The notes under the pieces were generated by a model. That model saw nothing but the letters and a program-made list of their open reading frames with translations, was not told the DNA's origin and did not search any database. From a candidate division WOR-3 bacterium (GTDB taxonomy: Bacteria > Hydrothermota > Tepidihabitantia > Tepidihabitantales > Tepidihabitantaceae): 64,000 nucleotides of DNA. The DNA is taken from positions 10,491 to 74,490 of the forward strand of contig JBBISL010000003.1 of NCBI GenBank assembly GCA_037441285.1. The letters run 5' to 3'. Below, piece after piece: positions 18,169 through 50,070 of this stretch. Each line of letters opens with the position of its first letter. The first letter of the stretch is position 1. Position numbers and translations under genes: made by a program.

Positions 18169-18448
18169 AGGCAATATTATATTATATGAAAATAGTTGCA
18201 AGAACGGGAGAAACGGTTTCCAGTTCATTTTGGCTGTTCCGACAGGCATCAAACCAGCACCCTTATTATCCGTGATATCATTTTTTTGGGAAATAATTGT
18301 CACCTTCACTTTATTTTCGAAATGTGATGGAGTTAATAACAAGCGAAATTTCTAATAGATAGGAGTATGTGTTCTGTTTTGATAAGGTAATAAATTTTAT
18401 GTGAAAGTTTTTCTTGACAAGCGATTTTAAATTTATAACTTTATTTTC

Positions 18449-19465
18449 TTGGCGATATACTTTTTACCAAACGAAAGGCGCGTCAACTGGCTCGCCCGAC
18501 TTGCGGGCGGTTACAACCTGTTCATTCCGGTTAAGGCTGGGAATGGGGTACACTGGCAGCGGTTTGATAAAGAAAAGGTTGATTTAGATTCCCTGGCATT
18601 AAAGGAGATTCGTGCTGCCGAGCCGATAAAATCTTTCCTTTTCAGCCCTCGGGAGCGGGTTGCCCTCTTTCCCGAACCACTCGAGGAGCCGGCTGATGGA
18701 AACCCGGCTCTTCTTTTGGGAGTGAAGGGTTGCGACCTGAGAGGTTTGGCGGTTCATCAAAAGATGTTCCTTGAGGGTGAGTTTGCGGACCCATTTTATT
18801 CAAAGCGGGTAAAAGAAACGGTTCTTATCGCAGCCGACTGTCCGGAGCCTAAAGACTCCTGTTTCTGCAATCTGGTTGGATTGAAGCCCTATGCGGTTGA
18901 TGGGGTGGATTTAGTCCTCAGCGTGATTGATGAAGGTTGGCTTGTTGAGGTTGTGTCGGAAAGAGGGGCAAAGCTGATTGAGGGCGAAAATTGGCAGCCT
19001 GCGGCCGAGAGGCAGATTAACAAGCGGGACGGCCAAAGGCAGCAGGCAGAAGGTGTGTTACAGCAGCGCAATCCTAAACCCCTGAACCCAAATTTACCAC
19101 AGGTGATTGCCGAAAGAACCAACGATGAGAAGTTCTGGGCGGAGGCAGCAAAGGATTGCGTTGAATGCTTTGGCTGTTTGATGACCTGTCCGACCTGCTT
19201 CTGTTTCTTACTGTACGACCAGGCAAAGGGCGATAAGGTTGAACGGACCAAGGTCTGGGATGCCTGTTATATGGCGATGTATGCTCGAGTTGGGGGCGGT
19301 GCAAATCCCCGGGCAAAGTTCCTTAAACGGTTTATTAATCGGTTTCACTGCAAGTTTATGCATGGGAAGAATCAACACGGGTTTTACTTCTGCTCGGGCT
19401 GTGGCAGATGCTTTACCGCCTGTATGGGTAAGATTGACATCAGGGATATTTTAGGACGCTTATGA
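18449..19465 (+). CDS. Iron-sulfur protein, AsrA / sulfhydrogenase-beta (HydB)-like
   Basis: 338 aa with Cys clusters CVECFGCLMTCPTCFC and CSGCGRCFTACMGKID. It has an apparent TTG start and is the first gene of the coupled operon. Confidence 0.55.
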   Translation: MAIYFLPNERRVNWLARLAGGYNLFIPVKAGNGVHWQRFDKEKVDLDSLALKEIRAAEPIKSFLFSPRERVALFPEPLEEPADGNPALLLGVKGCDLRGLAVHQKMFLEGEFADPFYSKRVKETVLIAADCPEPKDSCFCNLVGLKPYAVDGVDLVLSVIDEGWLVEVVSERGAKLIEGENWQPAAERQINKRDGQRQQAEGVLQQRNPKPLNPNLPQVIAERTNDEKFWAEAAKDCVECFGCLMTCPTCFCFLLYDQAKGDKVERTKVWDACYMAMYARVGGGANPRAKFLKRFINRFHCKFMHGKNQHGFYFCSGCGRCFTACMGKIDIRDILGRL

Positions 19466-20277
19466 ACAATCCATACCAGCCAATTCCAACCAAAATCCTG
19501 GATGTTATTGAAGAAACGCCGAACATAAGGACTCTTGTTTTGAAGCCCGAAAAGCAGATACCGTTTCTTGCCGGCCAGTTTGTTGAGTTGACCATACCCG
19601 GTTTTGGTGAGGCGCCGTTTACCCCGTCATCGTCCCATTTCGAGCGCGAGGTTCTTGAGATGACAATAATGCGGGTTGGCAGAGCCACCGGCGCGCTTTT
19701 TACCAAGAAGCCCGGAGATTTGCTGGGTATTCGGGGACCTTATGGCAAACCGTATCCTCTGAAGGAGTTTGAGGGCAGGGACATTTATATCGTGGGCGGT
19801 GGCGTTGGTCTGGCACCGTTACGGGCGCTCTTCCTTGCTTTGGTCCATGAGATAAATAAATATGGAAAAATCTTCCTCCGTTACGGTGCCCGGACACCGA
19901 AAGACATTGTCTATAAGAAACAGTTAAAGGAGTGGGAGAAGATAAAGAAGGTGGATATCGACCTGTCGGTGGACAGTGCGGATGAACCCTGGGAAAGGAA
20001 GGTTGGGGTGGTCACCTGTTTGATGGATGAAATCCCCTGCGATGTGAAAAAGAGCGTCGCGGTCGTATGCGGTCCACCGATAATGATGAAGTTTGTAACC
20101 AAGAAGTTGCTCGAAGCCGGTTTTCCGGGGAAGTCGATTTATCTTTCGATGGAGATGAATATGTCCTGTGGTCTGGGTCAGTGCGGACACTGTCGGCTTG
20201 GTCCCTATTTCACCTGCAAAGACGGTCCGGTTCTGACCTGGGAGCAGATAAAGGACATTGAGGAGCCTTTCCTGTGA
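19462..20277 (+). CDS. FAD/NAD(P)H-binding oxidoreductase with a C-terminal 2Fe-2S cluster, AsrB/HydG/PyrK-like
   Basis: 271 aa with an FNR-like fold (RTLVLKPE, GGGVGLAPL) and C-terminal CGLGQCGHCRLG...C. Its start overlaps the previous gene (ATGA). Confidence 0.65.
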   Translation: MNNPYQPIPTKILDVIEETPNIRTLVLKPEKQIPFLAGQFVELTIPGFGEAPFTPSSSHFEREVLEMTIMRVGRATGALFTKKPGDLLGIRGPYGKPYPLKEFEGRDIYIVGGGVGLAPLRALFLALVHEINKYGKIFLRYGARTPKDIVYKKQLKEWEKIKKVDIDLSVDSADEPWERKVGVVTCLMDEIPCDVKKSVAVVCGPPIMMKFVTKKLLEAGFPGKSIYLSMEMNMSCGLGQCGHCRLGPYFTCKDGPVLTWEQIKDIEEPFL

Positions 20278-21890
20278 TGAGCGAGGTTAAGCGTTCAACC
20301 TGTGTAATGTGCCGTAATGGTTGTCAACTGGGAATTGTGTTTGATGGGTATCAGTATCGAATGGAGTATTTGGCCGCTGTGGCGCCCAACAACGGACGAA
20401 CCTGTCCCCGGGGTAACAGCGCAAATGTCGTAATTGACCATCCCAAGCGGCTCGGTTATCCGCTACTTGATGGTAAGGAAATTACCTGGGAAAAGGCGTT
20501 TGCGTTAATGAAAAACTGGCACGAGGCGGTGAAGCCCGAGGAGATTGCGGTTGTTTATAGCCGGGGTGCGGGTGCAGCAGACATCGGTTTAGTGCGGGGT
20601 TTTGCTGCGGCGCTGGGAACAGACAATCTCGTTTGTGGTTATCTGGAGCCGGACAATGCGTTCCGGTATCGGCTGGCTGGGGTTAAACCGGCAACACTTG
20701 ATGATCTGGCAGCGAGCCGGGCGACCTTGCTTGTCGGCGATGTGTTCAGCACATCACCCGTGGCAGCGAAGGGGATAATTGAAGCCCGTTATGCCGATAA
20801 ACAAAGCCGGATGGTGGTGATTGACTCAATTAAAACCCGGCAGGCAGGTTTTGCACACATATTCATTCAACCCAAACCCGGCACCGAGTTTTTGGTTCTC
20901 GCGGGAATTGCCGGACTTATCGACCCCAAGTTGAAGGTTGATATTGATGGGGTTGCGACCAGAACCGGGGTACCGCGCCGCCAGATGGAAGAGGCGGCAA
21001 AGATTTTGAAGCCCGGGGTCAACGGTCTGGTTGCCGGTGCGGCAAGTTTGGGAAGGGTAAGCGAGCCTTACTGGCACTCAATCTTTGCTCAGATTTTAGC
21101 GCTGAAGGCGGAGAAGCCGTTTGTTGGTTTTGGTGAGGCACTGGTGCCGGATGGGAAGATGGGGTTTGGAAAGTTGCAGGAGTTGGTGGCGGCAGGCAGA
21201 ATCAAACTCCTGTTCTGGTTTGGTGGGCTACATCCCTACAGTTATCCTGAGTTGTTCCCAGAGTTAAATCGGGTTGAGTTCCGGGTGGCAACGAGCATAT
21301 TCCGTCCGGCAAAGCCGCTGCCCGGTTTGGTACTGCCGGTGCCCAGTGAATTTGAAAAGACGGGCAGGGGTGAAAGTGTTTGGGGTGAGGTGAAATTCGA
21401 ACCGCTGGCGAAGCCGGTCAGTGGTACCAGGACGCTGGCGGATATTGTTAGCCAGTTTGGTGCAGTGAAGGAGATGGCTGGTGAATCTTACCAGCGTGTA
21501 AAACTGGAAGAGGTGACGGCCCAACTTCCTCAAGCGCTAAGTAAACATCTGGGTACCGCGGCCACAACCGAAGGGAATCTTTACTGGCTCTTGGGCAGAA
21601 AAGAGGCGATTGGTGTGGGCGGTTTCTTTGAACCCGAGGACGAGATTATATTACATCCAGCCGATGCCCAGAAACTTGCGGTCCGGGAAGACGATTTTGT
21701 TAAGGTGAAAAGTAAGACCGGTGAGCGTCAATTCTGCGTCAAGGTTCTGCCGGTGGTTTCACCGGGAACAGCGACTGTTGGAGTCAATGCCCATCAAAAC
21801 CGGGCGCTGTTTCCGGTCGAAGTTGACGCCGGGACAGGTGAGGCTAAAATTCCGCCAGCAAAGGTCGAGATATGGCGAGTGTCGGCGTGA
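20274..21890 (+). CDS. Compact molybdopterin/tungstopterin (bisPGD) oxidoreductase catalytic subunit, formate-dehydrogenase-like, cytoplasmic (no Tat signal)
   Basis: 538 aa with an N-terminal 4Fe-4S motif CVMCRNGCQL...CPRG and a C-terminal MopB domain-IV beta-barrel (ILHPADAQKLAVREDDFVKVKSKTGERQF). Confidence 0.65.
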   Translation: MMSEVKRSTCVMCRNGCQLGIVFDGYQYRMEYLAAVAPNNGRTCPRGNSANVVIDHPKRLGYPLLDGKEITWEKAFALMKNWHEAVKPEEIAVVYSRGAGAADIGLVRGFAAALGTDNLVCGYLEPDNAFRYRLAGVKPATLDDLAASRATLLVGDVFSTSPVAAKGIIEARYADKQSRMVVIDSIKTRQAGFAHIFIQPKPGTEFLVLAGIAGLIDPKLKVDIDGVATRTGVPRRQMEEAAKILKPGVNGLVAGAASLGRVSEPYWHSIFAQILALKAEKPFVGFGEALVPDGKMGFGKLQELVAAGRIKLLFWFGGLHPYSYPELFPELNRVEFRVATSIFRPAKPLPGLVLPVPSEFEKTGRGESVWGEVKFEPLAKPVSGTRTLADIVSQFGAVKEMAGESYQRVKLEEVTAQLPQALSKHLGTAATTEGNLYWLLGRKEAIGVGGFFEPEDEIILHPADAQKLAVREDDFVKVKSKTGERQFCVKVLPVVSPGTATVGVNAHQNRALFPVEVDAGTGEAKIPPAKVEIWRVSA

Positions 21891-22360
21891 AGATTAAGAA
21901 ACGATTGGTCGTTCGTCTGGACTACTGCATTGGTTGTCGCGCCTGTGAGGCGGCGTGCCGGAGTCGGTTTAAAGGTGAAGCGCGCATTCGGTATGCACCG
22001 GTTGGCGAGACGGTTTTAGTTCCCCTGCCCTGCCGGCATTGCGCCGAGCCTTTATGCGCCGCGGCTTGCCCGTTTGAGGTGATAAAGAAGGATGAGGAGC
22101 GCGGGATTGTCTATCAGTCCAGTGTGCACTGTGTTGGTTGCAAATCGTGCATCCTTGCCTGTCCTTTCGGGGTTCTGGACAAGGATTTGTTGCGCCGCAT
22201 CGCGCAGAAATGCAATCTTTGTGAAGACCGGGAAGGTGGACCAAGGTGTGCGGCTTCCTGTCCCACCGGCGCGTTACAGTTTGTTGATGAAGAGGAGATG
22301 AAAGAGTTGATGGTGGGTAAGCGGGTTCTTTCCCGGCTGCCATTCTGGAGGCGGGTGTGA
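21872..22360 (+). CDS. 4x[4Fe-4S] ferredoxin, HycB/HyfA-like electron-transfer subunit
   Basis: 162 aa with 16 Cys in four CxxCxxCxxxCP-type motifs. Confidence 0.75.
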   Translation: MASVGVKIKKRLVVRLDYCIGCRACEAACRSRFKGEARIRYAPVGETVLVPLPCRHCAEPLCAAACPFEVIKKDEERGIVYQSSVHCVGCKSCILACPFGVLDKDLLRRIAQKCNLCEDREGGPRCAASCPTGALQFVDEEEMKELMVGKRVLSRLPFWRRV

Positions 22361-23313
22361 GTTCCTTTTTGTCGGGATGGCGGCTGGTGATAGCGTTCAT
22401 CGGAACCCTGATTGTTGTACCGGTTGCCGGGCTGATTTTGAACTGGGTTGACCGGTTTGTTTCGGCGCGGGTGCAGTGGCGGAAGGGTCCGCCCTTTTAT
22501 CAGCCATTTGCCGACATTCTGAAACTGCTGTTAAAACAGACCATAGTTCCTCAGGGTGCTTCCCGAACGGTGTTTCTACTGGCGCCGCTGGTGGGCATAG
22601 CCGGGATGAGTCTGGTGGCGGTGCTTCTTTTCTTCAGCAACTCCGGTCTGGTGGTGGCGCAGAAAACATCGTTTATCGGTGACATCATCGTGCTTTTATA
22701 CCTCCTGGCGCTGGTTCCGCTCAGTTTTATCGTTGGTGCCTCGGCATCACGCAACCCGGTGGCGGCGGTAGGTGCTTCGCGCGAGATGACTCTATATCTT
22801 GGTTACGAACTGCCATTTGTTCTGGCGCTCCTTGTGCCAATTGTTAAAGTCGCGCAGCACTGGGATGTAACGAGTGCTTTAAGAATTGGCGGACTGGTAG
22901 CCTATCAACAGCAGTTTGGGCCCTTTTTGTATTCGGTTTCCGGGGTAATCGCGGGGCTGATTATCCTGTTTACGATTCAGGCAAAACTGGGTTATGTGCC
23001 ATTTGACATTCCTGAGGCGGAACAGGAGATAATGTCCGGTGTTCTGGTGGAGTATTCGGGTGCGCCCCTTGCGGCATTTCGCATCACCCGGGCGATGATG
23101 TTTGTCCTGATGCCGCTGCTCTTAATCACGGTGCTCTGGGGTGGCATTACCGACTGGTGGGCAATTTTGAAGTTTCTCTTGATTGTGGTTCTGGTGGTGT
23201 TGATGAAGAACACCAACCCCCGGCTCAGGATTGACCAGGCGCTCGGGTTTTTCTGGTTTATTCTGGCGCCACTGGGTATAATTGCGGTGGTATTAGCATT
23301 TATTGGCTTATGA
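22357..23313 (+). CDS. Membrane subunit, NuoH/HycD-like
   Basis: 318 aa, about 8 TM, with NuoH-family loops (WRKGPPFYQPFADILKL). Confidence 0.75.
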   Translation: MSSFLSGWRLVIAFIGTLIVVPVAGLILNWVDRFVSARVQWRKGPPFYQPFADILKLLLKQTIVPQGASRTVFLLAPLVGIAGMSLVAVLLFFSNSGLVVAQKTSFIGDIIVLLYLLALVPLSFIVGASASRNPVAAVGASREMTLYLGYELPFVLALLVPIVKVAQHWDVTSALRIGGLVAYQQQFGPFLYSVSGVIAGLIILFTIQAKLGYVPFDIPEAEQEIMSGVLVEYSGAPLAAFRITRAMMFVLMPLLLITVLWGGITDWWAILKFLLIVVLVVLMKNTNPRLRIDQALGFFWFILAPLGIIAVVLAFIGL

Positions 23314-26599: not shown

Positions 26600-28521
26600 T
26601 GTTGGCGCACTCTTTTGTGTTAATCATCGTTGCCCCGATTGCGGCAGGAGTTTTAGGCTATCTGGTTGGCAGGTTACGCAATGAGTTCAGTTTTATTGGC
26701 GTCCTCGCCTCACTTTACTACGCCATCCGGTTATTTCTGGTTCGGGGCAGCGAGCAGGTGTTAAATCTTGGTAAGGTTGCCGGGGTTCCGATTGCTTTGC
26801 GCCTTGACCCGTTGTCCGGTTTTGTTCTCCTTTTTGTCAGCGTCTTCACCGCGCTCATCGTATTTTACTCCTTCCGCTATATGCGGGGCCGGGAAGGGAC
26901 CAGAGGTTACTACCTGTACTGCCTTTTGATTCTCGGTTTTGCCAACGGTGTGGTGTTGAGCGCCAACCTCGCGGTTCTGTTCTTCTTCTGGGGTGCATTG
27001 CTCTTTGTCCTTTACGGCATTCTTTTGATTGGCAAAGGCGACACCTTCCTTACCGCGCGCAAGGCGCTGGTCATTGTCGGGCTTTCCGACTTTGCGATGC
27101 TTTTAGGCGTGGTTCTTTTATTGAGCCGGACATTCATTGCCGGTGGCTGGATTGACCTGGCGCCCAAGGTGCCTCTGCCGCTTTACGACCCGATAGTACT
27201 CGCCGGCTTTTTGCTTGTGACCGCGGGTGCCCTTGCCAAAGCCGGGGCGATGCCTTTGCACACCTGGATTCCGCAGGCAGCCGATACCGCACCGGCGCCG
27301 GTGATGGCACTGATTCCGTCATCACTTGACAAACTCCTCGGGATTTACCTTTTGACCCGGCTCTGTGTTTCGATGTTTGACATCTCAAGCAATATGGTGC
27401 TCAGGAATATTCTGATGGCGATTGGTGCTTTGACGATTATCGCGGCGGTGATGATGGCGCTCGTTCAGAAGCGGATGATGAAACTCCTGTCATTTTCTAC
27501 GGTCTCCCAGGTTGGTTATATGGTGCTTGGGATTGGTACCGGGATTCCGGTAGGTATTGCCGGTGGCCTTTTCCATATGCTCAACCACGCGATATACAAA
27601 ACCGGACTTTTCCTTGCCGGTGGTTCGGTGGAACACTGGGCAAAGACCGATGAACTGGAAAAACTGGGTGGCGTGGCAAAGCAGATGCCATTGACCTTTA
27701 TCTCGTTCTTCATCTGTGCCCTGGCGATTGCGGGCGTGCCGCCGCTCAACGGGTTTTTCTCAAAGTGGATGGTTTATCAGGGGGTTTTAACCGTGGGAAA
27801 TGAAGGAAACCGGCTGTTCCCCATCTTCCTCGTTGCGGCGATGCTGGGCAGTGTCTTGACCCTGGCGTCATTTTTGAAGATGCTCCATGCCCTGTTCTTT
27901 GGTCAGCGTCCGGCGAATCTGGAGCGGGTGCGTGAGGTGAGTATGACGATGTGGCTACCGCCTTTCCTGCTGGCGCTTGCCTGCGTGGTTTTCGGCGTGT
28001 TTGCCTATTCAGTCCCGCTCTCCGGTCTGATTTTACCCGGGCTCAGGTTTTACGATGTTACACTTTACGGAGTCTGGAGTCCGATTTTAGCAACCCTCTT
28101 GTTGATTGCCGCACTCGGTTTTGGCGCCATTTTGTACCTTTTGGGTACCGCAGCCCGACCGGTGCCGGGCAAGACCTTTTTCGGCGGCGAGAAGATTGCG
28201 GATGAAGAGGAGAGCCGGGTGCCCGGGACCGCATTTTACTCATCGGTGAAGCATATGCCCCTGATTGGCGATATGCTCGTCTTTGGGGAACGGGGCGCAT
28301 TTGACCTTTACAACTGGCTGGTGGGGATTTTCAAGGTGGTTGGTGCCGGTCTGCGCGAAGGTGTTGACCGGGTACTTGAGGCGCTGGCAGAGTTCATCGG
28401 TAAACTGGTGTACTACTTCGGTCTCGGTCTGTCAAAAATTCATACCGGTAATCTACCGCTTTATCTATCCTGGGTGTTTTTAGGCGCGGTGATATTCTAT
28501 TTACTGCTGTTTTTGAGGTAA
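26596..28521 (+). CDS. Antiporter-like membrane subunit, MrpA/NuoL-like
   Basis: 641 aa with HTWIPQAADTAPAPVMALI and a long C-terminal extension. Confidence 0.75.
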   Translation: MMLAHSFVLIIVAPIAAGVLGYLVGRLRNEFSFIGVLASLYYAIRLFLVRGSEQVLNLGKVAGVPIALRLDPLSGFVLLFVSVFTALIVFYSFRYMRGREGTRGYYLYCLLILGFANGVVLSANLAVLFFFWGALLFVLYGILLIGKGDTFLTARKALVIVGLSDFAMLLGVVLLLSRTFIAGGWIDLAPKVPLPLYDPIVLAGFLLVTAGALAKAGAMPLHTWIPQAADTAPAPVMALIPSSLDKLLGIYLLTRLCVSMFDISSNMVLRNILMAIGALTIIAAVMMALVQKRMMKLLSFSTVSQVGYMVLGIGTGIPVGIAGGLFHMLNHAIYKTGLFLAGGSVEHWAKTDELEKLGGVAKQMPLTFISFFICALAIAGVPPLNGFFSKWMVYQGVLTVGNEGNRLFPIFLVAAMLGSVLTLASFLKMLHALFFGQRPANLERVREVSMTMWLPPFLLALACVVFGVFAYSVPLSGLILPGLRFYDVTLYGVWSPILATLLLIAALGFGAILYLLGTAARPVPGKTFFGGEKIADEEESRVPGTAFYSSVKHMPLIGDMLVFGERGAFDLYNWLVGIFKVVGAGLREGVDRVLEALAEFIGKLVYYFGLGLSKIHTGNLPLYLSWVFLGAVIFYLLLFLR

Positions 28522-28524
28522 AAG

Positions 28525-29070
28525 ATGATTGAACTTTACATCCTTTTAGGAGTGATGCTGGCAGCGGCGCTGGTTGCCAGCGAGACCAAGAATTTGCTGG
28601 CGGCAGCGGTGGCGCTGGGTCTGGTCGGGTTCAGCGTTGCGATTATGTTCATTTTAGCCCAGGCGCCCGATTTGGCGATTGTCCAGATTGTGGTTGAGAC
28701 CTTAACGGTTGTGTTCTTTACCGCGGTGATTCTGCGCACGACTGAGATTGATACAACGGCGACCAGCGGGTTAAAGATGGAGACCGCAATGTTTATCGCC
28801 GCATTTCTTGCCTTTGGCGGGTTATTCCTGTCGCTCATTATCGGCGTGTTCCGGGAGTTGCCCACCTTTGGTCAGCCCTTGATGCGGCTGGCAACCGACT
28901 ACATCCAGTTTGGTCTGGAGCGGACCGGAGCGGCGAACATCGTTGCGGCAATCATTCTCGATTTCCGGGGTTATGATACATTAGGTGAGGCGACAGTCTT
29001 GTTCACCGCGGTGGTCGGGGTTTTGACGGTGATGCGATTTGTCACCAAGAAAAAGCCGGGGGGAAGTTAG
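28525..29070 (+). CDS. MrpA C-terminal / MnhB-domain membrane protein (DUF4040-like)
   Basis: 181 aa, hydrophobic, at the MrpA-C/MrpB position in the module. Confidence 0.5.
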   Translation: MIELYILLGVMLAAALVASETKNLLAAAVALGLVGFSVAIMFILAQAPDLAIVQIVVETLTVVFFTAVILRTTEIDTTATSGLKMETAMFIAAFLAFGGLFLSLIIGVFRELPTFGQPLMRLATDYIQFGLERTGAANIVAAIILDFRGYDTLGEATVLFTAVVGVLTVMRFVTKKKPGGS

Positions 29071-29071
29071 T

Positions 29072-29512
29072 ATGCGCGGGATGTCTTTGATTGTTCAGGT
29101 GATGGCAGGACTGCTCGCCGGAATGGTCTTCCTCTACGGTGGCTACATAATCCTTCATGGCCATTTAACACCCGGCGGCGGTTTTGCCGGTGGGGTTTTG
29201 GTTGCCGCGGCGTTGATTCTCCTTTCGCTGGCATACGGTTCGGTTGAGCAGGTGGAGAAGCGGCGCTACATCTTCTCTTCGGTGTTTGAAAGTTTGGGCG
29301 GCGTTTTCTTCCTTGCGCTGGCACTCGTCGGTTACTTTGCCGCGGACTGCTTTTTCCGTAATACGGGCGTGTTTTATTTAGGCAAGCCCCTGCAACTGGT
29401 CTCCGGTGGTTTGATTCCGCTGGCAAACATCGCTATCGGCGTAAAGGTCGGCGCCGGACTCTTTGCCGTCTTTCTGGCGCTGGGTGCCTCAAGGTTTGTG
29501 ATGAAGGAGTAG
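29072..29512 (+). CDS. MrpB/MnhB-like membrane subunit
   Basis: About 146 aa, 4 TM. The start was moved to ATG 29072 just after the upstream stop. Confidence 0.5.
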   Translation: MRGMSLIVQVMAGLLAGMVFLYGGYIILHGHLTPGGGFAGGVLVAAALILLSLAYGSVEQVEKRRYIFSSVFESLGGVFFLALALVGYFAADCFFRNTGVFYLGKPLQLVSGGLIPLANIAIGVKVGAGLFAVFLALGASRFVMKE

Positions 29513-29514
29513 AG

Positions 29515-29868
29515 ATGATTCCATATATCGCCTGCGTCCTTTTGTTTCTCATCGGTCTCTATGTGGTGGTGTCAAAGCGGAACCTGATTAAAATTGTGAT
29601 TGGGTTCTGCCTGATTGAGTATGCGGTCAACCTGTTCTTTGCCCTGGTTGGGTTTAAAAAGGGTGCCCTGCCGCCGATTATCACCGGTGCCGACCAGGTA
29701 CGGCTCGGTGTTGCCCGCAACTTTGTTGACCCAATACCACAGGCGCTGGTGTTGACCGCAATCGTTATCGGACTGTCAACCACCGCATTGATGCTCTCGC
29801 TCGCGCTCCGTCTCTATGAGAAACACAAGACCTTTGATGTTTCGGAATTCAGAAAGTTGAAAGGATAA
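29515..29868 (+). CDS. MrpC/NuoK-like membrane subunit
   Basis: 117 aa, 3 TM, at the NuoK/MnhC position. Confidence 0.6.
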   Translation: MIPYIACVLLFLIGLYVVVSKRNLIKIVIGFCLIEYAVNLFFALVGFKKGALPPIITGADQVRLGVARNFVDPIPQALVLTAIVIGLSTTALMLSLALRLYEKHKTFDVSEFRKLKG

Positions 29869-29874
29869 GAGCCG

Positions 29875-31380
29875 ATGGAAGGCAAATTCCTACCACTGTT
29901 TATTGCGGTGCCTTTAGCCGGTGCCTTTCTCGTGCCCTTACTGTCCAAACTGTGGTCCCGTTTTGCTGACCTGATTGCCGGCATCGCCAGTGCTGCGCTT
30001 CTGGTGATTTCGGTTTACACCTGGCTGATTTTGAAAGCGGGTGGTGTGCCGCTGCACTACTGGGTTGGTGGCTGGAAGGTAATTGGCATCGCGATGTGGT
30101 TTGATGCCCTGACCGCACTCATTGTTCTGGTGATTAACATCGTGGCTTTCTGCGCAATGCTTTACTCAATCCGCTATCTGGACCGTTACACCACGGGCCG
30201 CTGGAAGTTTTACACCCTGTTTTTACTCCTCGTTGCCGGTTTGAATGGTCTGGCGATATCCGGTGACCTGTTCAATATGTTTGTCTTCATTGAGATTTCT
30301 GCCATTGCCAGTTATGCGCTGGTGGCATTTGGTACCGAAGAAGAAGAGGTTGAGGCGGCGTTCAAATATATGGTCCTGGGTGAAGTGGGTGGTGCGGTGC
30401 TCCTCTTTGGCATTGCGCTCCTCTACGCCCACGCTTCAACCCTGAATCTGGCAACCCTGTCTCAGACACTAATAACCAACGGTAAAACGCCCTTTTACTG
30501 GTTTACCATTGCCACCCTGTTAATCGGGTTTGCCATCAAGATGGGTATGGAACCGTTCCACGCCTGGCTGGCAGACGCCCACTTCTCAGCACCGGCACCC
30601 ATCTCGGCGATGCTTTCCGGTGTGTTCATCAAGGTCACCGGTGTTTATGGGATGTGCCGTTTAATGTTCAATGTGTTTGGTGTATCCCGGGCACAGACTC
30701 CGGCATTCTTCAACCTGTTGATTGCCTTTGGTGCGGTTTCAATGGTACTGGGCGGACTTTTAGCCTACTCCCAGAACGACTACAAACGGCTCCTTGCCTA
30801 CTCCAGTATCAGCCAGATTGGTTATATCCTTGTCGCGCTCGGTATCGGCAACTACTGGGGTTTTGTTGGCGCGCTGTTTCACATCCTTGCCCACGCTTTG
30901 GGTAAGGGCACCTTGTTCTTAGCCAGCGGTTCGGTTGAGATGCAGGCGGGCACCAGGGAACTTGACCATCTGAAAGGACTGGAGCGGTCAATGCCCTTCA
31001 CATCCTGGGCGCACATTCTTGGCTCATTCTCAATGGCAGGGGTGCCGCCCTTTGCCGGATTCTTCTCCAAGTTGTTCATCATCATCGGTGCGATTGCCGC
31101 CCGAATGTACTGGCTCGCATTCCTTGCGGCGCTCTTCTCCGCGGTCACTTTGAGTTATTTAACAAAGGTGGTCAACACCGCATTCTTTGCGAAAAAGAAC
31201 GAAGCGCCCACAAAGGCAAAAGAGTCACCGGCAACAATGGTTCTGGCGATGGTTCTCCTGGTCGCATTAATTCTTGTTGTCGGGATTGGTTTTCAGGGCG
31301 TTCTCGACCATCTAATTGGTCCGGCGGCAAAGGTGCTATTGAACGGGCTGGACTATGCCCGATTGATGCTCGGAGGATAA
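29875..31380 (+). CDS. Antiporter-like membrane subunit, MrpD/NuoM-like
   Basis: 501 aa with the HAWLADAHFSAPAPISAML motif. Confidence 0.75.
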   Translation: MEGKFLPLFIAVPLAGAFLVPLLSKLWSRFADLIAGIASAALLVISVYTWLILKAGGVPLHYWVGGWKVIGIAMWFDALTALIVLVINIVAFCAMLYSIRYLDRYTTGRWKFYTLFLLLVAGLNGLAISGDLFNMFVFIEISAIASYALVAFGTEEEEVEAAFKYMVLGEVGGAVLLFGIALLYAHASTLNLATLSQTLITNGKTPFYWFTIATLLIGFAIKMGMEPFHAWLADAHFSAPAPISAMLSGVFIKVTGVYGMCRLMFNVFGVSRAQTPAFFNLLIAFGAVSMVLGGLLAYSQNDYKRLLAYSSISQIGYILVALGIGNYWGFVGALFHILAHALGKGTLFLASGSVEMQAGTRELDHLKGLERSMPFTSWAHILGSFSMAGVPPFAGFFSKLFIIIGAIAARMYWLAFLAALFSAVTLSYLTKVVNTAFFAKKNEAPTKAKESPATMVLAMVLLVALILVVGIGFQGVLDHLIGPAAKVLLNGLDYARLMLGG

Positions 31381-31381
31381 G

Positions 31382-31870
31382 ATGGCAAAGCGCATTGCTT
31401 ACTTCATTGCCGGCGTTATCATCTGGGTACTCTTAAGCTGGACCCTGCACTATCAGGAGGTACTTGCCGGGGTTGCGGTATCGGCGATTACCGCGGGTAT
31501 GTTTGGTGGTTATCTACCCCTGAAGGCAGGAAAACTTTTGAATCCGGTGCGCTGGTTCTGGCTGCTTGTGTATATCCCGGTGTTTGGCTGGCAGTGTCTC
31601 AAGGCGAACATTGATGTTGCGCTGCGCGTCCTTTCCCCTGGAATGAACTTAAAACCGGGAATTGTGAAGATTAAGACCAACTTGAAGAGCGATATCGCCC
31701 GGGTTTTTTTGGCGAACTCAATCACAATGACTCCGGGCACGCTTACGGTGGAAATCAAGGACGACTACCTCTACATTCACTGGATTGAAGTGCGCAGCGA
31801 CGACCCGGAAGAGTGCGCCCGGATGATTAAAGGACCGTTTGAGTTTTTCCTCGCGCGGATATTTGATTAA
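31382..31870 (+). CDS. MrpE/MnhE-like subunit
   Basis: 162 aa with two N-terminal TM helices then a soluble domain, at the MnhE position. Confidence 0.55.
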   Translation: MAKRIAYFIAGVIIWVLLSWTLHYQEVLAGVAVSAITAGMFGGYLPLKAGKLLNPVRWFWLLVYIPVFGWQCLKANIDVALRVLSPGMNLKPGIVKIKTNLKSDIARVFLANSITMTPGTLTVEIKDDYLYIHWIEVRSDDPEECARMIKGPFEFFLARIFD

Positions 31871-31883
31871 GGAGGCTTGAGCG

Positions 31884-32135
31884 ATGATACCGATTATCGT
31901 TTTGATTCCGGCAGCGCTCTTCTGCCTGTATCGGGCGCTTCAGGGTCCATCAATTGCCGACCGGGCGATAGCGGTTGATATGATGGGCGTGGTGTTCTCG
32001 GCAATCACCGGTCTGGTTGCGCTTCAGTACCGCTTGAGTTACCTTCTGGACATCTCAATTGCGCTTGCGGTCATCTCATTTATTGGCACTCTGGCGCTGG
32101 CAAAGTACCTTGAAGGAAGGAGTCTTGATGATTAG
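31884..32135 (+). CDS. MrpF/MnhF-like subunit
   Basis: 83 aa, 3 TM. Confidence 0.5.
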   Translation: MIPIIVLIPAALFCLYRALQGPSIADRAIAVDMMGVVFSAITGLVALQYRLSYLLDISIALAVISFIGTLALAKYLEGRSLDD

Positions 32136-32481
32136 CGCACTGGCACTGATTTCGCTCTGGCTCGGAGTCATTTTCGTGCTTCTGGGTGCGCTCGGACTGG
32201 CACGGTTTCCGGACATCTACAACCGGATGCAGGCGGCGACCAAATGCGTCACCCTTGGGGTCTGCGGCATTATGCTCGGTGTATTTTTGAAAACCGGTTT
32301 CACGGCGCTCGGCATCAAGGCGCTCATCTGTGCCCTTTTCATCCTTGTCACGGTTCCGGTTTCCAGTCATGCACTGGCACGCGGCTCCTTAATCGCCGGA
32401 GTGAAACTGTGGAAGGGTACGGTCAAGGACAAGTTTACTGAAGACCGTGGTGGCAAATCAATCATTGAGGAAGAAAAATGA
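32128..32481 (+). CDS. MrpG/MnhG-like subunit
   Basis: LGALGLARFPDIYNRMQAATKCVTLG matches the MnhG signature. The start was set at ATG 32128 with an RBS (AAGGAAGG). Confidence 0.6.
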   Translation: MISALALISLWLGVIFVLLGALGLARFPDIYNRMQAATKCVTLGVCGIMLGVFLKTGFTALGIKALICALFILVTVPVSSHALARGSLIAGVKLWKGTVKDKFTEDRGGKSIIEEEK

Positions 32482-33089
32482 GGATTCCATTACCAAAACT
32501 GCGGGAACTAATTGAAGCGGTGCGGGCGGTGGTTAAAGGTCCGTTTACCACCCAGTTTCCGAAAAAGGTTGATTCGGTTCATCCCAACTTCCGGGGAATT
32601 TTGAAGTTCCGGGAAGAGAACTGCCTCTGCTGTGGCGCCTGTGTCCAGGTTTGTCCAACCGATGCCCGCGAGATTGTCATTGACCTTCAGAAGGGTGTCA
32701 AGCGTAACATCCACTATGCGGACCATTGTATCTACTGTGCCCAGTGTGTCCTGCACTGCCCGAACGATGCGATTTACCACACCCCGGAGTTTGACCTTTC
32801 CCGGACCGAACGGGGCGGTTGGGAAACATCGGTGGAGAAGGAACTGGTTTACTGCGAAATCTGCGGCGCACCATTTGCCACCCGCGCCCACCTGTTATGG
32901 ATTGCCCATCGGGTTGGTGATTTGGTCAACTCCAACCCGACCCTGTTTTTGACCCTTTATCAGTCGCTCGGTATTGCCGCGCCCCAGGAAGCGCCTGCCG
33001 GCGCGGTTCCTTACCGTTCTGGCACATTAAGGGTTCTCTGCCCGGACTGTCGGCGCAAGACCTATATGTCCGAAGAGTGGGGTTATTAA
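32478..33089 (+). CDS. 2x[4Fe-4S] subunit, NuoI/MbhN-like, with an extra C-terminal Cys pair
   Basis: Contains CLCCGACVQVCP and CIYCAQCVLHCP, plus CEICG...CPDC. It is the last gene of the operon. Confidence 0.65.
   Translation: MRIPLPKLRELIEAVRAVVKGPFTTQFPKKVDSVHPNFRGILKFREENCLCCGACVQVCPTDAREIVIDLQKGVKRNIHYADHCIYCAQCVLHCPNDAIYHTPEFDLSRTERGGWETSVEKELVYCEICGAPFATRAHLLWIAHRVGDLVNSNPTLFLTLYQSLGIAAPQEAPAGAVPYRSGTLRVLCPDCRRKTYMSEEWGY

Positions 33090-48678: not shown

Positions 48679-50070
<1,392 letters not shown>

What the first reader, a model, noticed from the sequence alone, without database searches (positions are those of the whole stretch)
18449..33089. Sixteen-gene, translationally coupled operon: NAD(P)H/FeS module plus Mo/W-bisPGD oxidoreductase plus group 4 [NiFe] hydrogenase plus complete Mrp antiporter module
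Every junction from 18449 to 33089 is an overlap or a gap of 7 nt or less, so this is a single roughly 14.6 kb transcription unit. The gene order is: AsrA/HydB-like FeS protein, AsrB/HydG-like flavoprotein, compact Mo/W-bisPGD catalytic subunit, HycB-like 16-Cys ferredoxin, NuoH-like, NuoB-like small subunit, NuoC-like, NuoD-like large subunit with intact Ni-binding CxxC pairs, then MrpA-G equivalents including three antiporter-like subunits, and finally a NuoI-like 2x[4Fe-4S] protein. The overall logic resembles formate hydrogenlyase (Hyc/Hyf) and the archaeal Fdh-Mfh-Mnh or Mbh-Mrp complexes, meaning substrate oxidation coupled to H2 evolution and ion translocation. The addition of an AsrAB/HydBG-type NAD(P)H-linked input pair and a very short Mo enzyme is not a described architecture as far as I know. 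It may be a new variant of ion-pumping hydrogenlyase, possibly NAD(P)H- or formate-driven.
Basis: partly seen in the sequence, partly recalled or inferred. Interest (0 to 1): 0.75.

Follow-up and report, generated by a model that had tools for sequence, protein, structure and literature searches.

The report
NAD(P)H-linked Mrp-type membrane [NiFe] hydrogenase operon
This is a real 18-gene operon of a WOR-3 bacterium for a membrane-bound, ion-pumping [NiFe] hydrogenase with an NAD(P)H-binding module and a degenerate formate-dehydrogenase-like subunit; the design is conserved and has been noted in silico in two papers, but nobody has tested it biochemically.

Summary
The unit 18449-33089 has 18 genes, not 16, and one intergenic gap is 13 nt, not 7 or less.

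- homologs of sulfhydrogenase I beta and gamma (FeS and FAD/NAD(P)H subunits);
- a compact MopB-fold protein;
- a 16-Cys HycB-like ferredoxin;
- NuoH, NuoB and NuoC homologs and a NuoD-like large subunit with intact Ni-binding motifs;
- one extra antiporter-like subunit followed by a complete MrpA(split)BCDEFG set;
- a HycF-like FeS protein.

The "Mo/W catalytic subunit" is not a formate dehydrogenase. The Sec/Cys-His dyad and the Arg333 segment are missing, several FDH-invariant residues are lost, and it is the fastest-evolving subunit. Only its FS0 cluster ligands are strictly kept.

The gene order is identical in every locus with enough flank among 37 WOR-3 or unnamed species loci. The soluble core recurs in metagenomes with four kinds of membrane arm, one of them absent altogether.

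The architecture is not undescribed. It was called "enigmatic" in Saganbacteria in 2019 and was reported in Group 4b clusters in 2026.

Most likely it is a formate-hydrogenlyase-derived, ion-coupled NAD(P)H:H+ oxidoreductase. A third redox site on the Fdh-like subunit is not excluded.

The parts
18449..19465 (+). g1: FeS subunit, a homolog of sulfhydrogenase I beta (HydB/ShyB/AsrA-like). 338 aa, 16 Cys.
   Evidence: Pfam Fer4_22. NCBIfam ShyB/HydB/AsrA. PDB 9nez_B at E 2.4e-39, aligned over residues 5-331. TTG is the only start compatible with the full-length alignment.
19462..20277 (+). g2: FAD/NAD(P)H flavoprotein with a [2Fe-2S] site, a homolog of sulfhydrogenase I gamma (HydG/AsrB/PyrK-like). 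271 aa.
   Evidence: Pfam FAD_binding_6, NAD_binding_1 and DHODB_Fe-S_bind. PDB 9nez_C at E 1.4e-48. The GGGVGLAP motif and C236/C241/C244/C252 are read directly from the sequence. It overlaps g1 by 4 nt.
20277..21890 (+). g3: compact Fdh-like MopB-fold protein, 537 aa. The FS0 [4Fe-4S] ligands are intact, but the FDH catalytic residues are absent.
   Evidence: Pfam matches are weak. The AF2 model has pLDDT 93. Foldseek gives TMq about 0.8 to FDH and Nap. C9/C12/C16/C43 and R45 are invariant. There is no Sec/Cys-His and the Arg333 segment is deleted. It is the least conserved subunit.
21872..22360 (+). g4: HycB-like ferredoxin with four [4Fe-4S] motifs (16 Cys). The start is ATG 21872 or GTG 21887.
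   Evidence: Pfam Fer4_11. NCBIfam HydN/FDH-beta/DmsB-type. Cys motifs counted.
22357..23313 (+). g5: NuoH/HycD/MbhM-like membrane subunit that links the peripheral arm to the membrane arm.
   Evidence: Pfam NADHdh at E 2e-59.
23310..23726 (+). g6: NuoB/HycG-like hydrogenase small subunit (proximal [4Fe-4S]).
   Evidence: Pfam Oxidored_q6. CxxC, GxC and CPP cysteines are present. It is 75-99% identical across loci with the full gene set.
23723..24175 (+). g7: NuoC-like subunit. It is a separate gene, not fused to the large subunit.
   Evidence: Pfam Complex1_30kDa.
24165..25355 (+). g8: group 4 [NiFe] hydrogenase large subunit, 396 aa. It carries RICGICSDSH and DPCYCCTER plus a 32-aa C-terminal extension.
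   Evidence: Pfam NiFeSe_Hases and Complex1_49kDa. PDB MbhL 266 bits and HycE 259 bits. Motifs and tail. Both motifs are kept in all 39 related large subunits that cover them.
25352..26599 (+). g9: extra antiporter-like subunit (NuoM/N/HycC-like), 415 aa.
   Evidence: Pfam Proton_antipo_M at E 7e-55.
26596..28521 (+). g10: MrpA N-terminal/NuoL-like antiporter subunit, 641 aa, with a long C-terminal region.
   Evidence: Pfam Proton_antipo_N and Proton_antipo_M.
28525..29070 (+). g11: fused MbhD+MbhE, equivalent to the C-terminal part of MrpA.
   Evidence: Pfam MbhD and MbhE.
29072..29512 (+). g12: MrpB/MnhB/MbhF-like subunit.
   Evidence: Pfam MnhB. Start chosen.
29515..29868 (+). g13: MrpC/NuoK/MbhG-like subunit.
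   Evidence: Pfam Oxidored_q2.
29875..31380 (+). g14: MrpD-like antiporter subunit, 501 aa.
   Evidence: Pfam Proton_antipo_M at E 3e-70.
31382..31870 (+). g15: MrpE/MbhA-like subunit.
   Evidence: Pfam MNHE.
31884..32135 (+). g16: MrpF/MbhB-like subunit. It follows the only 13-nt gap in the operon and has an AAGGAGG ribosome-binding site upstream.
   Evidence: Pfam MrpF_PhaF. Upstream sequence.
32128..32481 (+). g17: MrpG/MbhC-like subunit.
   Evidence: Pfam PhaG_MnhG_YufB. Start ATG 32128.
32478..33089 (+). g18: HycF/HyfH/NuoI-like subunit, 203 aa. It has two [4Fe-4S] motifs plus a C-terminal C126xxC129-x58-C188PxC191 site.
   Evidence: Pfam Fer4 families. The best NCBIfam matches are the FHL iron-sulfur subunit and HyfH. 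Cys positions. The equivalent Cys quartet of E. coli HycF binds a metal ion facing FdhF (PMC9474812).

Best explanation
The operon encodes one respiratory complex of a WOR-3 bacterium. It is a formate-hydrogenlyase-derived, Mrp-linked group 4 [NiFe] hydrogenase.

**Parts shown by sequence.**
- The peripheral arm has the FHL layout: a large subunit plus NuoC, a NuoB-like small subunit, a HycF-like subunit, a 4-cluster HycB-like subunit and an FdhF-like protein.
- The membrane arm is a NuoH-like subunit, one extra antiporter-like subunit and a full MrpA(split)BCDEFG set.
- Attached to this is a homolog of the NADPH-oxidising beta/gamma pair of sulfhydrogenase I.
- The FdhF-like protein has lost the FDH catalytic residues but keeps its FS0 cluster.

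**Mechanism (inferred).**
- Electrons pass between NAD(P)H and the [NiFe] site by this route: FAD and [2Fe-2S] in g2, the clusters of g1, the HycB-like and HycF-like clusters, the proximal cluster of g6, then the [NiFe] site.
- Turnover is coupled through the NuoH-like subunit to H+/Na+ movement in the Mrp module.
- Either the ion gradient drives H2 evolution from NAD(P)H, or H2 oxidation with NAD(P)+ conserves energy.
- The Fdh-like subunit serves mainly as a docking or FeS-carrying relic, comparable to the MopB-like domain and N7 cluster of NuoG in complex I.
For: **Domain content and motifs.**
- Every subunit has a clear family assignment.
- The Ni-binding motifs and a 32-aa HycE-type tail are present.
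- The large subunit scores about equally against MbhL and HycE.
- g18 is HycF-like and has the C-terminal Cys quartet that faces FdhF in E. coli FHL.
- g1 and g2 are full-length homologs of SHI beta and gamma.
- The FAD/NAD domains and the [2Fe-2S] site are intact.

**g3 is not an FDH.**
- It has a full MopB fold.
- Sec140-His141 are replaced or deleted.
- The Arg333 segment is deleted.
- FDH-invariant N176, R204, D429, R460 and Q463 are not kept.
- The residue at the ligand position varies among orthologous operons: Glu in most, His in L002 and P0213, Pro or Gly in others.
- g3 is always the least conserved subunit, at 28-59% identity in all but the two closest relatives, where the large subunit is 67-92%.
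- The FS0 cysteines are nearly universal.

**Single functional unit.**
- Gene order is identical in every locus with enough flank among 37 WOR-3 or unnamed species loci and one Latescibacterota.
- The core g1-g4 + g6-g8 + g18 recurs in 27 metagenome loci, whatever the membrane arm.
- One version has no membrane subunits at all, so the soluble arm is a self-contained redox enzyme.

**Independent support.** PMC13582414 reports the same association between Fdh lacking Cys/Sec and SHI-gamma/beta, in Group 4b clusters.
Against: - No biochemical or expression data exist.
- g3 is never lost and keeps several MopB framework motifs: D183 of the DPR motif, LP..E, and N.H.NR..F in domain IV. That is more than one might expect of a pure relic.
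- The published AlphaFold models put the Fdh-like protein at the end of a third branch. Their authors favour a three-substrate bifurcating or confurcating enzyme.
- NAD(P)H to H2 spans only about 94 mV (textbook potentials). A module with three antiporter-like subunits looks over-dimensioned for that.
- The direction of operation and the ion specificity are unknown.
Confidence: 0.5

Rival explanations
1. The complex has three redox sites and works by electron bifurcation or confurcation. The Fdh-like subunit still binds a (possibly modified) Mo/W-pyranopterin or another centre and turns over an unidentified substrate. The FeS network links that site, NAD(P)H at the SHI-gamma-like subunit and H+/H2 at the [NiFe] site, with ion translocation on top.
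For: - The authors of PMC13582414 proposed this from AlphaFold models with a three-way branched FeS network.
- g3 is retained in every locus with the FS0 ligands conserved.
- Several MopB framework motifs and a well-conserved loop (CGYxEPxN in WOR-3, SSYLEPE in relatives) persist at the former active site.
- The family scores far better against real FDHs than NuoG does, 55 versus 11 bits.
Against: - No conserved metal-ligand candidate exists across orthologous operons; the position holds Glu, His, Pro or Gly.
- The Arg333/RGQNNVQG segment and N176 are deleted, and R204, D429, R460 and Q463 are lost. The bis-MGD pocket is therefore heavily remodelled.
- g3 evolves fastest of all subunits.
- No flavin of a known bifurcating type is present. 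g2 is a PyrK/AsrB-type single NAD(P)H entry.
- No candidate substrate transporter or Moco genes lie in the 64 kb window.
Confidence: 0.25
2. The complex is a genuine formate hydrogenlyase or formate-respiring enzyme (Fdh-Mfh-Mnh type). Formate would be oxidised at g3 and H2 evolved, with g1/g2 as a side outlet to NAD(P)+.
For: - The overall FHL layout is present, including the HycB-like and HycF-like proteins and the large-subunit tail.
- The closest sequence and structure matches of g3 are formate dehydrogenases.
- T. onnurineus provides precedents for Fdh + Mfh + Mnh and for an NADP-linked FDH.
Against: - All characterised metal-dependent FDHs have the Sec/Cys-His dyad and the active-site Arg (for example Cys133-His134-Arg324 in Fdh3). 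g3 has none of these.
- No formate transporter gene is in or near the operon.
- PMC6349859 also could not place the Saganbacteria homolog among FDHs.
Confidence: 0.05
3. The complex is an ordinary ferredoxin-dependent Mbh/Mrp-type hydrogenase, as assumed in MAG papers for 'Group 4g/Mbh + Mrp'. On this reading g1-g4 form an unrelated soluble NAD(P)H-dependent oxidoreductase that merely shares the operon.
For: - The Mrp and Mbh subunit set is complete.
- MAG studies routinely annotate such clusters as Fd-coupled Mbh or as complex I.
- Ferredoxin could still dock onto the exposed FeS proteins.
Against: - g1-g4 are translationally coupled to g5.
- In the loci retrieved through g3, g1-g4 are found with this large-subunit lineage, whatever the membrane arm. 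That includes an 8-gene version with no membrane subunits, where g4 is followed directly by the small subunit.
- g4 and g18 are FHL-type connector proteins, which P. furiosus Mbh lacks or does not need.
Confidence: 0.12

Closest known systems
Group 4b [NiFe] hydrogenase clusters with a Cys/Sec-less Fdh-like protein plus SHI-gamma/SHI-beta homologs (Front Microbiol 2026;17:1925269, PMC13582414). In silico only.
   Same: The defining combination is the same: an FHL-like group 4 hydrogenase, several ferredoxin-like subunits, several antiporter subunits, an Fdh-like protein without the Mo-ligating Cys/Sec, and homologs of SHI gamma and beta (compared).
   Different: - That paper describes HyfE/HyfC-like membrane subunits. 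It names Chloroflexota, Desulfobacterota, Acidobacteriota and others, but not WOR-3.
- Here the membrane arm is a full Mrp set with three antiporter-like subunits.
- All large subunits here are CxxC type, with no Sec.
- Whether the WOR-3 large subunit falls in their 4b subclade could not be tested.
'Enigmatic' group 4 hydrogenase of Saganbacteria RX5A (Matheus Carnevali et al. 2019, PMC6349859, Supplementary Note 5)
   Same: It has asrA-like, asrB-like, an unclassifiable fdhH-like MopB with a single FeS domain, cooF-like, NuoB/C/D/H/I homologs and Mrp antiporter-like subunits in one region. Its function is unknown.
   Different: It comes from a different phylum and is reported with two Mrp antiporter subunits and two other membrane subunits.
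E. coli formate hydrogenlyase FHL-1/FHL-2 (Hyc/Hyf; PDB 7Z0S)
   Same: - FdhF-type protein docked on a 4-cluster HycB.
- HycF with a C-terminal Cys4 metal site.
- HycG, and a large subunit with a 32-aa C-terminal extension.
- A NuoH-like HycD.
- Three antiporter-like subunits, as in Hyf.
   Different: - FdhF is a Sec-Mo enzyme. Here the catalytic residues are gone.
- HycE is a NuoC-NuoD fusion. Here they are two genes.
- E. coli has no Mrp small subunits and no NAD(P)H module.
Thermococcus onnurineus Fdh2-Mfh2-Mnh2 (formate-respiring, Mrp-linked, Group 4b) and its NADP-dependent Fdh3
   Same: The three-module logic is shared: an oxidoreductase module, a group 4 hydrogenase and an Mrp-type antiporter. 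Fdh3 shows that a MopB protein plus FeS proteins plus an NADP-binding flavoprotein can form one enzyme.
   Different: - The Thermococcus FDHs keep Cys-His-Arg and oxidise formate.
- Fdh3 uses a GltD/NfnB-like NADP subunit, not a PyrK/AsrB/SHI-gamma-like one.
- Fdh3 is not attached to the membrane hydrogenase.
Pyrococcus furiosus membrane-bound hydrogenase MBH (PDB 6CFW, Group 4d)
   Same: It is the best PDB match of the large subunit (266 bits). Equivalents of MbhA-H and MbhJ-N are all present.
   Different: MBH takes electrons from ferredoxin directly. It has one antiporter-like subunit and no HycB-like, Fdh-like or NAD(P)H subunits.
Pyrococcus furiosus soluble sulfhydrogenase I (Group 3b; PDB 9NEZ)
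   Same: g1 and g2 are full-length homologs of its beta and gamma subunits, the NADPH-FAD-[2Fe-2S]-[4Fe-4S] input wire.
   Different: In SHI the pair feeds a group 3b small and large subunit in a soluble tetramer. Here it is joined to a group 4 membrane enzyme.
Respiratory complex I, NuoG/Nqo3 C-terminal domain with cluster N7
   Same: It too is a MopB-fold module of FDH ancestry that has lost catalysis but kept the FS0-equivalent cluster. It sits next to a recruited NAD(P)H dehydrogenase module on a NuoBCDHI + antiporter chassis.
   Different: - This is analogy only.
- The NADH module of complex I is NuoEF (FMN).
- NuoD has lost the Ni ligands and reduces quinone.
- g3 is much closer to true FDHs than NuoG is, 55 versus 11 bits.

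Membership tests
Group 4 (respiratory, complex-I-related) [NiFe] hydrogenase | The large subunit has the N-terminal CxxC (RxCGxCxxxH) and C-terminal DPCxxC Ni/Fe ligand motifs. | tested here: met
   RICGICSDSH and DPCYCCTER are present. Both are conserved in the 39 related large subunits that cover them. Pfam NiFeSe_Hases and Complex1_49kDa match.
Group 4 (respiratory, complex-I-related) [NiFe] hydrogenase | A NuoB-type small subunit with only the proximal cluster, plus NuoC-, NuoH- and NuoI-type subunits and at least one antiporter-like subunit. | tested here: met
   Pfam Oxidored_q6, Complex1_30kDa, NADHdh, Fer4 and three Proton_antipo_M matches.
HydDB subgroup 4b (formate/CO-respiring, Mrp-linked) | Placement of the large subunit in the 4b clade by the HydDB classifier or by phylogeny with reference sequences. 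| not testable with these tools
   No 4b reference sequences and no HydDB classifier were available. PDB offers only 4a (HycE, 259 bits) and 4d (MbhL, 266 bits), which score about equally.
HydDB subgroup 4b (formate/CO-respiring, Mrp-linked) | Mrp-type antiporter module encoded with the hydrogenase. | tested here: met
   MrpA(N), MbhD/E, MnhB, MnhC, MrpD, MnhE, MnhF and MnhG occur in the canonical order.
HydDB subgroup 4b (formate/CO-respiring, Mrp-linked) | A catalytically competent formate dehydrogenase or CO dehydrogenase as electron donor. | tested here: not met
   g3 lacks Sec/Cys-His and the Arg333 segment. There is no CODH gene.
Group 4b subclade with Cys/Sec-less Fdh-like protein + SHI-gamma/beta (PMC13582414) | The Fdh-like protein lacks the Mo-ligating Cys/Sec. 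| tested here: met
   Glu124 or a gap sits at the position of Sec140 in three HMMER alignments and in hhalign.
Group 4b subclade with Cys/Sec-less Fdh-like protein + SHI-gamma/beta (PMC13582414) | SHI-gamma and SHI-beta homologs are encoded in the same cluster. | tested here: met
   g1 matches 9nez_B and g2 matches 9nez_C. They are adjacent to and overlap g3.
Group 4b subclade with Cys/Sec-less Fdh-like protein + SHI-gamma/beta (PMC13582414) | The large subunit is monophyletic with the published clusters (for example MDI6776830-41). | not testable with these tools
   Those sequences are not retrievable here, and the paper's supplements are not held.
Formate hydrogenlyase (Group 4a, Hyc/Hyf) | FdhF with Sec/Cys140, His141 and Arg333. 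| tested here: not met
   hhalign against an FdhF-led alignment puts the dyad in a gap and shows the 25-residue Arg333 segment deleted.
Formate hydrogenlyase (Group 4a, Hyc/Hyf) | A 16-Cys HycB, a HycF with a C-terminal CxxC...CPxC metal site, and a large subunit with a cleavable C-terminal extension of about 32 aa. | tested here: met
   One search gives 16 Cys in g4, C126xxC129-x58-C188PxC191 in g18, and a 32-aa tail on the large subunit. The reference features come from PMC9474812; the tail length of HycE is from my own knowledge.
Formate hydrogenlyase (Group 4a, Hyc/Hyf) | Large subunit fused to a NuoC-like domain (HycE/HyfG). | tested here: not met
   NuoC-like g7 and NuoD-like g8 are separate ORFs that overlap by 11 nt.
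Mrp (Mnh/Pha) cation:proton antiporter module | Seven subunit types A-G, encoded in the order A-B-C-D-E-F-G. | tested here: met
   g10 + g11 (split MrpA), then g12 (B), g13 (C), g14 (D), g15 (E), g16 (F) and g17 (G).
Sulfhydrogenase (Group 3b) beta/gamma NAD(P)H module | Full-length homology to SHI beta and gamma, with FAD and NAD domains and [2Fe-2S] ligands. | tested here: met
   The bit scores are far below NCBIfam equivalog cut-offs (152 versus 690; 175 versus 650). These are homologs, not orthologs.
Sulfhydrogenase (Group 3b) beta/gamma NAD(P)H module | Partnered with group 3b large and small subunits in a soluble heterotetramer. | tested here: not met
   The partners here are group 4 subunits.
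Mo/W-bisPGD (MopB/DMSO reductase) enzymes | Four-domain MopB fold with the N-terminal FS0 Cys4 motif. | tested here: met
   AF2 pLDDT 93 and Foldseek TMq 0.76-0.80 to FDH and Nap. C9/C12/C16/C43 are invariant.
Mo/W-bisPGD (MopB/DMSO reductase) enzymes | A conserved protein ligand to Mo/W (Sec, Cys, Ser or Asp) and a conserved bis-MGD binding pocket. | tested here: inconclusive
   - The ligand position holds Glu in WOR-3 and His, Pro or Gly in orthologous operons.
- N176, R204, D429, R460 and Q463 equivalents are lost.
- D202, G402, P444 and E450 equivalents are kept.
- Cofactor occupancy cannot be read from sequence.
Respiratory complex I (Nuo) | A NuoEFG NADH module and a NuoD without Ni ligands that reduces quinone. 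| tested here: not met
   There are no NuoE, NuoF or NuoG genes, and the Ni ligands are present. The KEGG-based 'complex I' calls for WOR-3 in PMC12542636 and PMC12285271 may stem from this operon; that is inference.

The most novel reading that the evidence does not exclude
The Fdh-like subunit is not a relic. It would carry a remodelled redox centre, for example a Glu/His-ligated or ligand-free Mo/W-pyranopterin exposed by the loop deletions. The complex would then be a membrane-bound, ion-translocating, three-way electron-confurcating or bifurcating machine that couples NAD(P)H, H2 and a still unknown third substrate. Its membrane arm would be interchangeable (none, Hyc-like, Mbh-like or three-pump Mrp) to tune the energetics.
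Probability: 0.2. Interest if true: 0.8.

Novelty: new member of a known kind. Interest (0 to 1): 0.5.

Why it matters
If the main reading is right, WOR-3 and several other uncultured phyla have an energy-converting enzyme that links the NAD(P)H pool directly to H2 across a membrane potential. No characterised hydrogenase does this. The known NAD(P)-linked ones are soluble, and the known membrane-bound group 4 enzymes use ferredoxin, formate or CO.

At present the operon is annotated as "complex I" or as "Fd-dependent Mbh".

It is also a living parallel to the proposed origin of complex I. An FHL-type hydrogenase kept a dead formate-dehydrogenase domain with its FeS cluster and recruited a separate NAD(P)H dehydrogenase module, as in NuoG plus NuoEF.

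The natural series of membrane-arm variants on a constant soluble core gives an unusually clean system for testing how antiporter modules set coupling stoichiometry. The series runs from no arm, through Hyc-like and Mbh-like arms, to a three-pump Mrp arm.

Tried and rejected
- **Exact look-up of the window's MopB protein:** not on record, so context came from homologs instead.
- **Third homolog search, with an alignment:** it returned only the same 87 WOR-3 clusters plus one unrelated protein. The exhaustive representative search was needed to see the wider compact-MopB superfamily.
- **Upstream AIRS-domain gene (17215-18342, minus strand):** I suspected HypE. NCBIfam shows it is ThiL (247 bits against 53 bits for HypE), so I rejected that idea.
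- **Accessory genes:** no hyp, hycI, focA or Moco-biosynthesis genes occur anywhere in the 64 kb window.
- **Promoter and terminator scan:** counts were indistinguishable from shuffled sequence, so it says nothing about transcript boundaries.
- **Mo/W-transporter co-occurrence:** in Table S4 of the WOR-3 paper, transporters are rare among mnhG-positive MAGs. Ni transporters are equally rare despite the [NiFe] hydrogenases, and modABC and Moco genes are not listed. The table is therefore uninformative.
- **Cofactor pocket of the AF2 model:** coordinates are not exposed to the sandbox.
- **HydDB subgroup assignment and complex modelling:** neither is possible with the tools provided.
- **Literature searches:** "WOR-3 + hydrogenase + Mrp" gave nothing. 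The WOR-3 papers do not describe the operon.
- **Sec-type large subunits:** I searched for them to tie the family to the published Sec-containing 4b subclades. None were found.

Full report
**1. What is in the sequence**

The + strand from 18449 to 33089 carries 18 consecutive ORFs. All have clear family assignments.

| Gene | Coordinates | Assignment |
|---|---|---|
| g1 | 18449-19465 | Fer4_22 FeS protein |
| g2 | 19462-20277 | FAD_binding_6 / NAD_binding_1 / DHODB_Fe-S_bind flavoprotein |
| g3 | 20277-21890 | 537-aa protein with weak Molybdopterin and Molydop_binding matches |
| g4 | 21872 or 21887-22360 | Fer4_11 ferredoxin |
| g5 | 22357-23313 | NuoH-like |
| g6 | 23310-23726 | NuoB-like |
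| g7 | 23723-24175 | NuoC-like |
| g8 | 24165-25355 | NiFeSe_Hases + Complex1_49kDa (large subunit) |
| g9 | 25352-26599 | antiporter-like, 415 aa |
| g10 | 26596-28521 | Proton_antipo_N + Proton_antipo_M, 641 aa |
| g11 | 28525-29070 | MbhD + MbhE |
| g12 | 29072-29512 | MnhB |
| g13 | 29515-29868 | NuoK/MnhC |
| g14 | 29875-31380 | MrpD-like, 501 aa |
| g15 | 31382-31870 | MnhE |
| g16 | 31884-32135 | MrpF |
| g17 | 32128-32481 | MnhG |
| g18 | 32478-33089 | 2x[4Fe-4S] protein |

- g10-g17 reproduce the canonical mrpABCDEFG order with MrpA split in two. g9 is an additional antiporter-like subunit.
- With the likeliest starts, junctions are overlaps of 1-11 nt (up to 19 nt for g3/g4 if g4 starts at ATG 21872) or gaps of 1-6 nt. 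The exception is a 13-nt gap before g16, which has an AAGGAGG site.
The gene count (16) and the "7 nt or less" statement need correcting.
- The flanks are unrelated housekeeping genes: NrdD, NrdR and ThiL upstream on the other strand, and a secreted protein, MazG and DUF6754 downstream.
- The consensus promoter and terminator scan was uninformative.

**2. The hydrogenase core**

- The large subunit has both Ni/Fe ligand motifs (RICGICSDSH and DPCYCCTER), followed by exactly 32 residues. This is the HycE-type arrangement and implies maturation by a HycI-type protease; that step rests on my own knowledge.
- Its best solved relatives are P. furiosus MbhL (266 bits) and E. coli HycE (259 bits), well above any complex I NuoD.
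- g4 has 16 Cys in four cluster motifs, like HycB.
- The best NCBIfam matches of g18 are the FHL iron-sulfur subunit and HyfH.
- g18 also has a C-terminal C126xxC129-x58-C188PxC191 quartet. In the E. coli FHL structure the equivalent quartet of HycF binds a metal ion facing FdhF (PMC9474812).
- The peripheral arm is thus FHL-like. The membrane arm is Mbh/Mrp-like with three antiporter-like subunits.

**3. The NAD(P)H module**

- g1 and g2 align over their whole length with the beta and gamma subunits of P. furiosus sulfhydrogenase I: PDB 9nez_B at E 2.4e-39 and 9nez_C at E 1.4e-48.
- NCBIfam ranks ShyB/HydB and AsrA for g1, and hydrogenase gamma, AsrB and HydG for g2. All are far below equivalog cut-offs.
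- g2 keeps the GGGVGLAP nucleotide-binding motif and four C-terminal cysteines for the [2Fe-2S] cluster.

**4. The "Mo/W" subunit**

- The g3 family is a tight set of 531-569-aa proteins, nearly all from candidate division WOR-3.
- An AlphaFold2 model built on 81 sequences is confident (pLDDT 93).
- It superposes on cytoplasmic FDHs and Nap with query TM-scores of 0.76-0.80 at 13-17% identity. It also matches NuoG.
- The FS0 ligands C9, C12, C16 and C43, plus R45, are invariant.
- Three independent HMMER alignments put family residue Glu124 opposite the Sec/Cys ligand, with Pro125 at or after the catalytic His. The targets were an F420-dependent FdhA (9t1s_L), the 7bkb_D FDH and E. coli FdhF.
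- A profile-profile alignment against an FdhF-led FDH alignment (probability 100%, 524 columns) puts Sec140-His141 in a two-residue gap.
- The same alignment shows that the 25-residue FdhF segment PHAGVNPVR(333)GQNNVQGACDMGALPD is deleted.
- It further shows that FDH-invariant N176 is deleted, R204 becomes Ile and D429 becomes Ser340. R460 and Q463 are not kept.
- The D202, G402, P444 and E450 equivalents are retained.
- Across orthologous operons the residue at the ligand position is not constant. It is Glu in WOR-3 and most relatives, His in L002 and P0213, and Pro or Gly elsewhere.
- g3 is therefore not a formate dehydrogenase, and its bis-MGD pocket is heavily remodelled. Sequence alone cannot decide whether any pterin cofactor is still bound.

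**5. Comparative genomics**

- The window's g3 shares a 90%-identity cluster with NPV14601.1 of a candidate division WOR-3 bacterium.
- A scan of one genome per GTDB species found the g3 family in 37 WOR-3 or unnamed bacterial loci and one Latescibacterota.
- In every locus with enough flank the order g1...g15 is identical. This includes the closed 3.26-Mb genome CP070680.1.
- g3 is always the least conserved subunit. Outside the two closest relatives it is 28-59% identical, where the large subunit is 67-92% and the small subunit 75-97%.
- An exhaustive profile search found 86 representatives at E 1e-30 or better. These form a wider superfamily of compact (about 520-620 aa) MopB-like proteins.
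- A metagenome scan seeded with its non-WOR-3 members returned 27 loci. In almost all of them g1-g2-g3-g4 are followed by the same hydrogenase genes, with large subunits 67-74% identical to the window's.
- The membrane arm varies:

| Type | Membrane arm | Loci |
|---|---|---|
| A | three antiporter-like subunits + full Mrp | window, L059 |
| B | one antiporter-like subunit + MbhD/E, MnhB, C, E, F, G | L002, L044, L046, L061 |
| C | NuoH + one antiporter-like subunit only (Hyc-like) | L042, L043, L060, L064 |
| D | no membrane genes at all | L050, L051; checked |

- All 39 large subunits that cover them keep both Ni motifs, and none has an in-frame TGA.
- The constant element is the soluble arm: SHI-beta/gamma-like pair, Fdh-like, HycB-like, HycF-like, and the small, NuoC-like and large subunits.

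**6. Prior descriptions**

- WOR-3 genome papers do not describe the operon. They report "complex I (nuo)" or NADH-quinone oxidoreductase from KEGG-based pipelines (PMC12542636 and PMC12285271). That these calls stem from this operon is my inference.
- Matheus Carnevali et al. 2019 described the same gene set in Saganbacteria RX5A as an "enigmatic" group 4 hydrogenase. It comprised asrA-like, asrB-like, an unclassifiable fdhH-like MopB with one FeS domain, cooF-like, NuoB/C/D/H/I homologs and Mrp-like subunits. They noted relatives in Zixibacteria and Omnitrophica.
- A 2026 in-silico study of Group 4 hydrogenases (PMC13582414) states that about half of the Fdh proteins in Group 4b clusters lack the Mo-ligating Cys/Sec. 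It states that those clusters co-occur with SHI-gamma and SHI-beta homologs.
- In that study AlphaFold models show an FeS network branching to the large subunit, SHI-gamma and the Fdh-like protein. The authors suggest bifurcation or confurcation between H+/H2, NADP+/NADPH and an unknown substrate.
- T. onnurineus Fdh3 is a biochemical precedent for a MopB + FeS + NADP-flavoprotein enzyme. It retains Cys-His-Arg and uses a different flavoprotein family.
- The architecture is therefore already on record in silico. It has never been tested experimentally, and the WOR-3 three-pump Mrp form has not been specifically described.

**7. Mechanism**

*Shown*
- The identity and cofactor motifs of all 18 products.
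- The loss of FDH catalytic residues in g3.
- The obligatory co-occurrence of the SHI-like pair, the Fdh-like protein and this large-subunit lineage.
- The modular membrane arm.

*Inferred*
- NAD(P)H is the soluble redox partner of the [NiFe] site through the FeS chain.
- Turnover is coupled to H+/Na+ movement through NuoH and Mrp.
- The Fdh-like subunit is mainly a structural or FeS-carrying relic analogous to NuoG with N7.

*Energetics*
- By textbook potentials, NAD(P)H to H2 is uphill by about 18 kJ/mol under standard conditions.
- The membrane forms could therefore use the ion gradient to push H2 evolution, or conserve energy during H2 uptake.
- The soluble form would behave like SHI.
- The direction of operation is unknown.

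*Open alternative*
- The three-site confurcating model remains possible. g3 is never lost, and it keeps a conserved loop and several framework motifs.

**8. Verdict**

- The feature is real and largely as described.
- It is a new WOR-3 member, with an Mrp-type three-pump membrane arm, of a recently noted but uncharacterised class of NAD(P)H-module-bearing, FHL-derived group 4 hydrogenases.
- It is not a new architecture, and it is unlikely to be formate-driven.
- Its interest is moderate. The enzymology is untested, and the parallel to complex I evolution is attractive.

Noticed in passing
window 48688-50070 and 56338-57657 (with 53239-54393 and 54320-55708 between them): Two paralogous Glu/Leu/Phe/Val dehydrogenase genes flank a histidine kinase and a sigma-54 response regulator. 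They are potential NAD(P)H sources about 15-25 kb from the hydrogenase operon.
   Followed up: no
L050 1915-8518 and L051 (metagenome contigs Ga0111225_1009 and Ga0209636_10061649): An 8-gene version of the cluster: SHI-beta-like, SHI-gamma-like, Fdh-like, HycB-like, NuoB-like, NuoC-like, large subunit and HycF-like. It has no NuoH, antiporter or Mrp genes. Its neighbours are an SNF transporter and an aminotransferase. This looks like a soluble form of the same enzyme.
   Followed up: partly
L057 9998-12431 (metagenome contig Ga0265297_10000383): An isolated trio of Fdh-like, HycB-like and NuoB-like genes, with no large subunit and no SHI-like genes. It sits beside glutamine synthetase and GatD/GatE-like genes. 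It may be a remnant or a different assembly.
   Followed up: partly
L002/L003 15835-16434 (Latescibacterota MAG GCA_018335915.1): A 199-aa PF00174 Oxidored_molyb (sulfite-oxidase-family Mo domain) gene directly follows the cluster in the one-antiporter variant. There is no counterpart after the window's operon.
   Followed up: no
window 43908-45470: A 520-aa ORF matches ThyX (FAD-dependent thymidylate synthase) in two stretches, so it appears to be a tandem-domain ThyX.
   Followed up: no
window 41327-43243 (minus strand): A 638-aa protein carries a GreA-type transcript cleavage factor domain at its C-terminus, fused to a long N-terminal region of about 480 aa.
   Followed up: no
window 1-64000: GC skew is positive in every 2-kb bin, and the cumulative skew rises monotonically. 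The whole window therefore lies on one replichore, with most genes on the + strand.
   Followed up: no
window 9897-12335: An 812-aa protein is a fusion of the TIGR03960 B12-binding radical SAM family and the TIGR03936 radical-SAM-associated family. It lies next to an RNase E/G gene. Its function is unknown.
   Followed up: no
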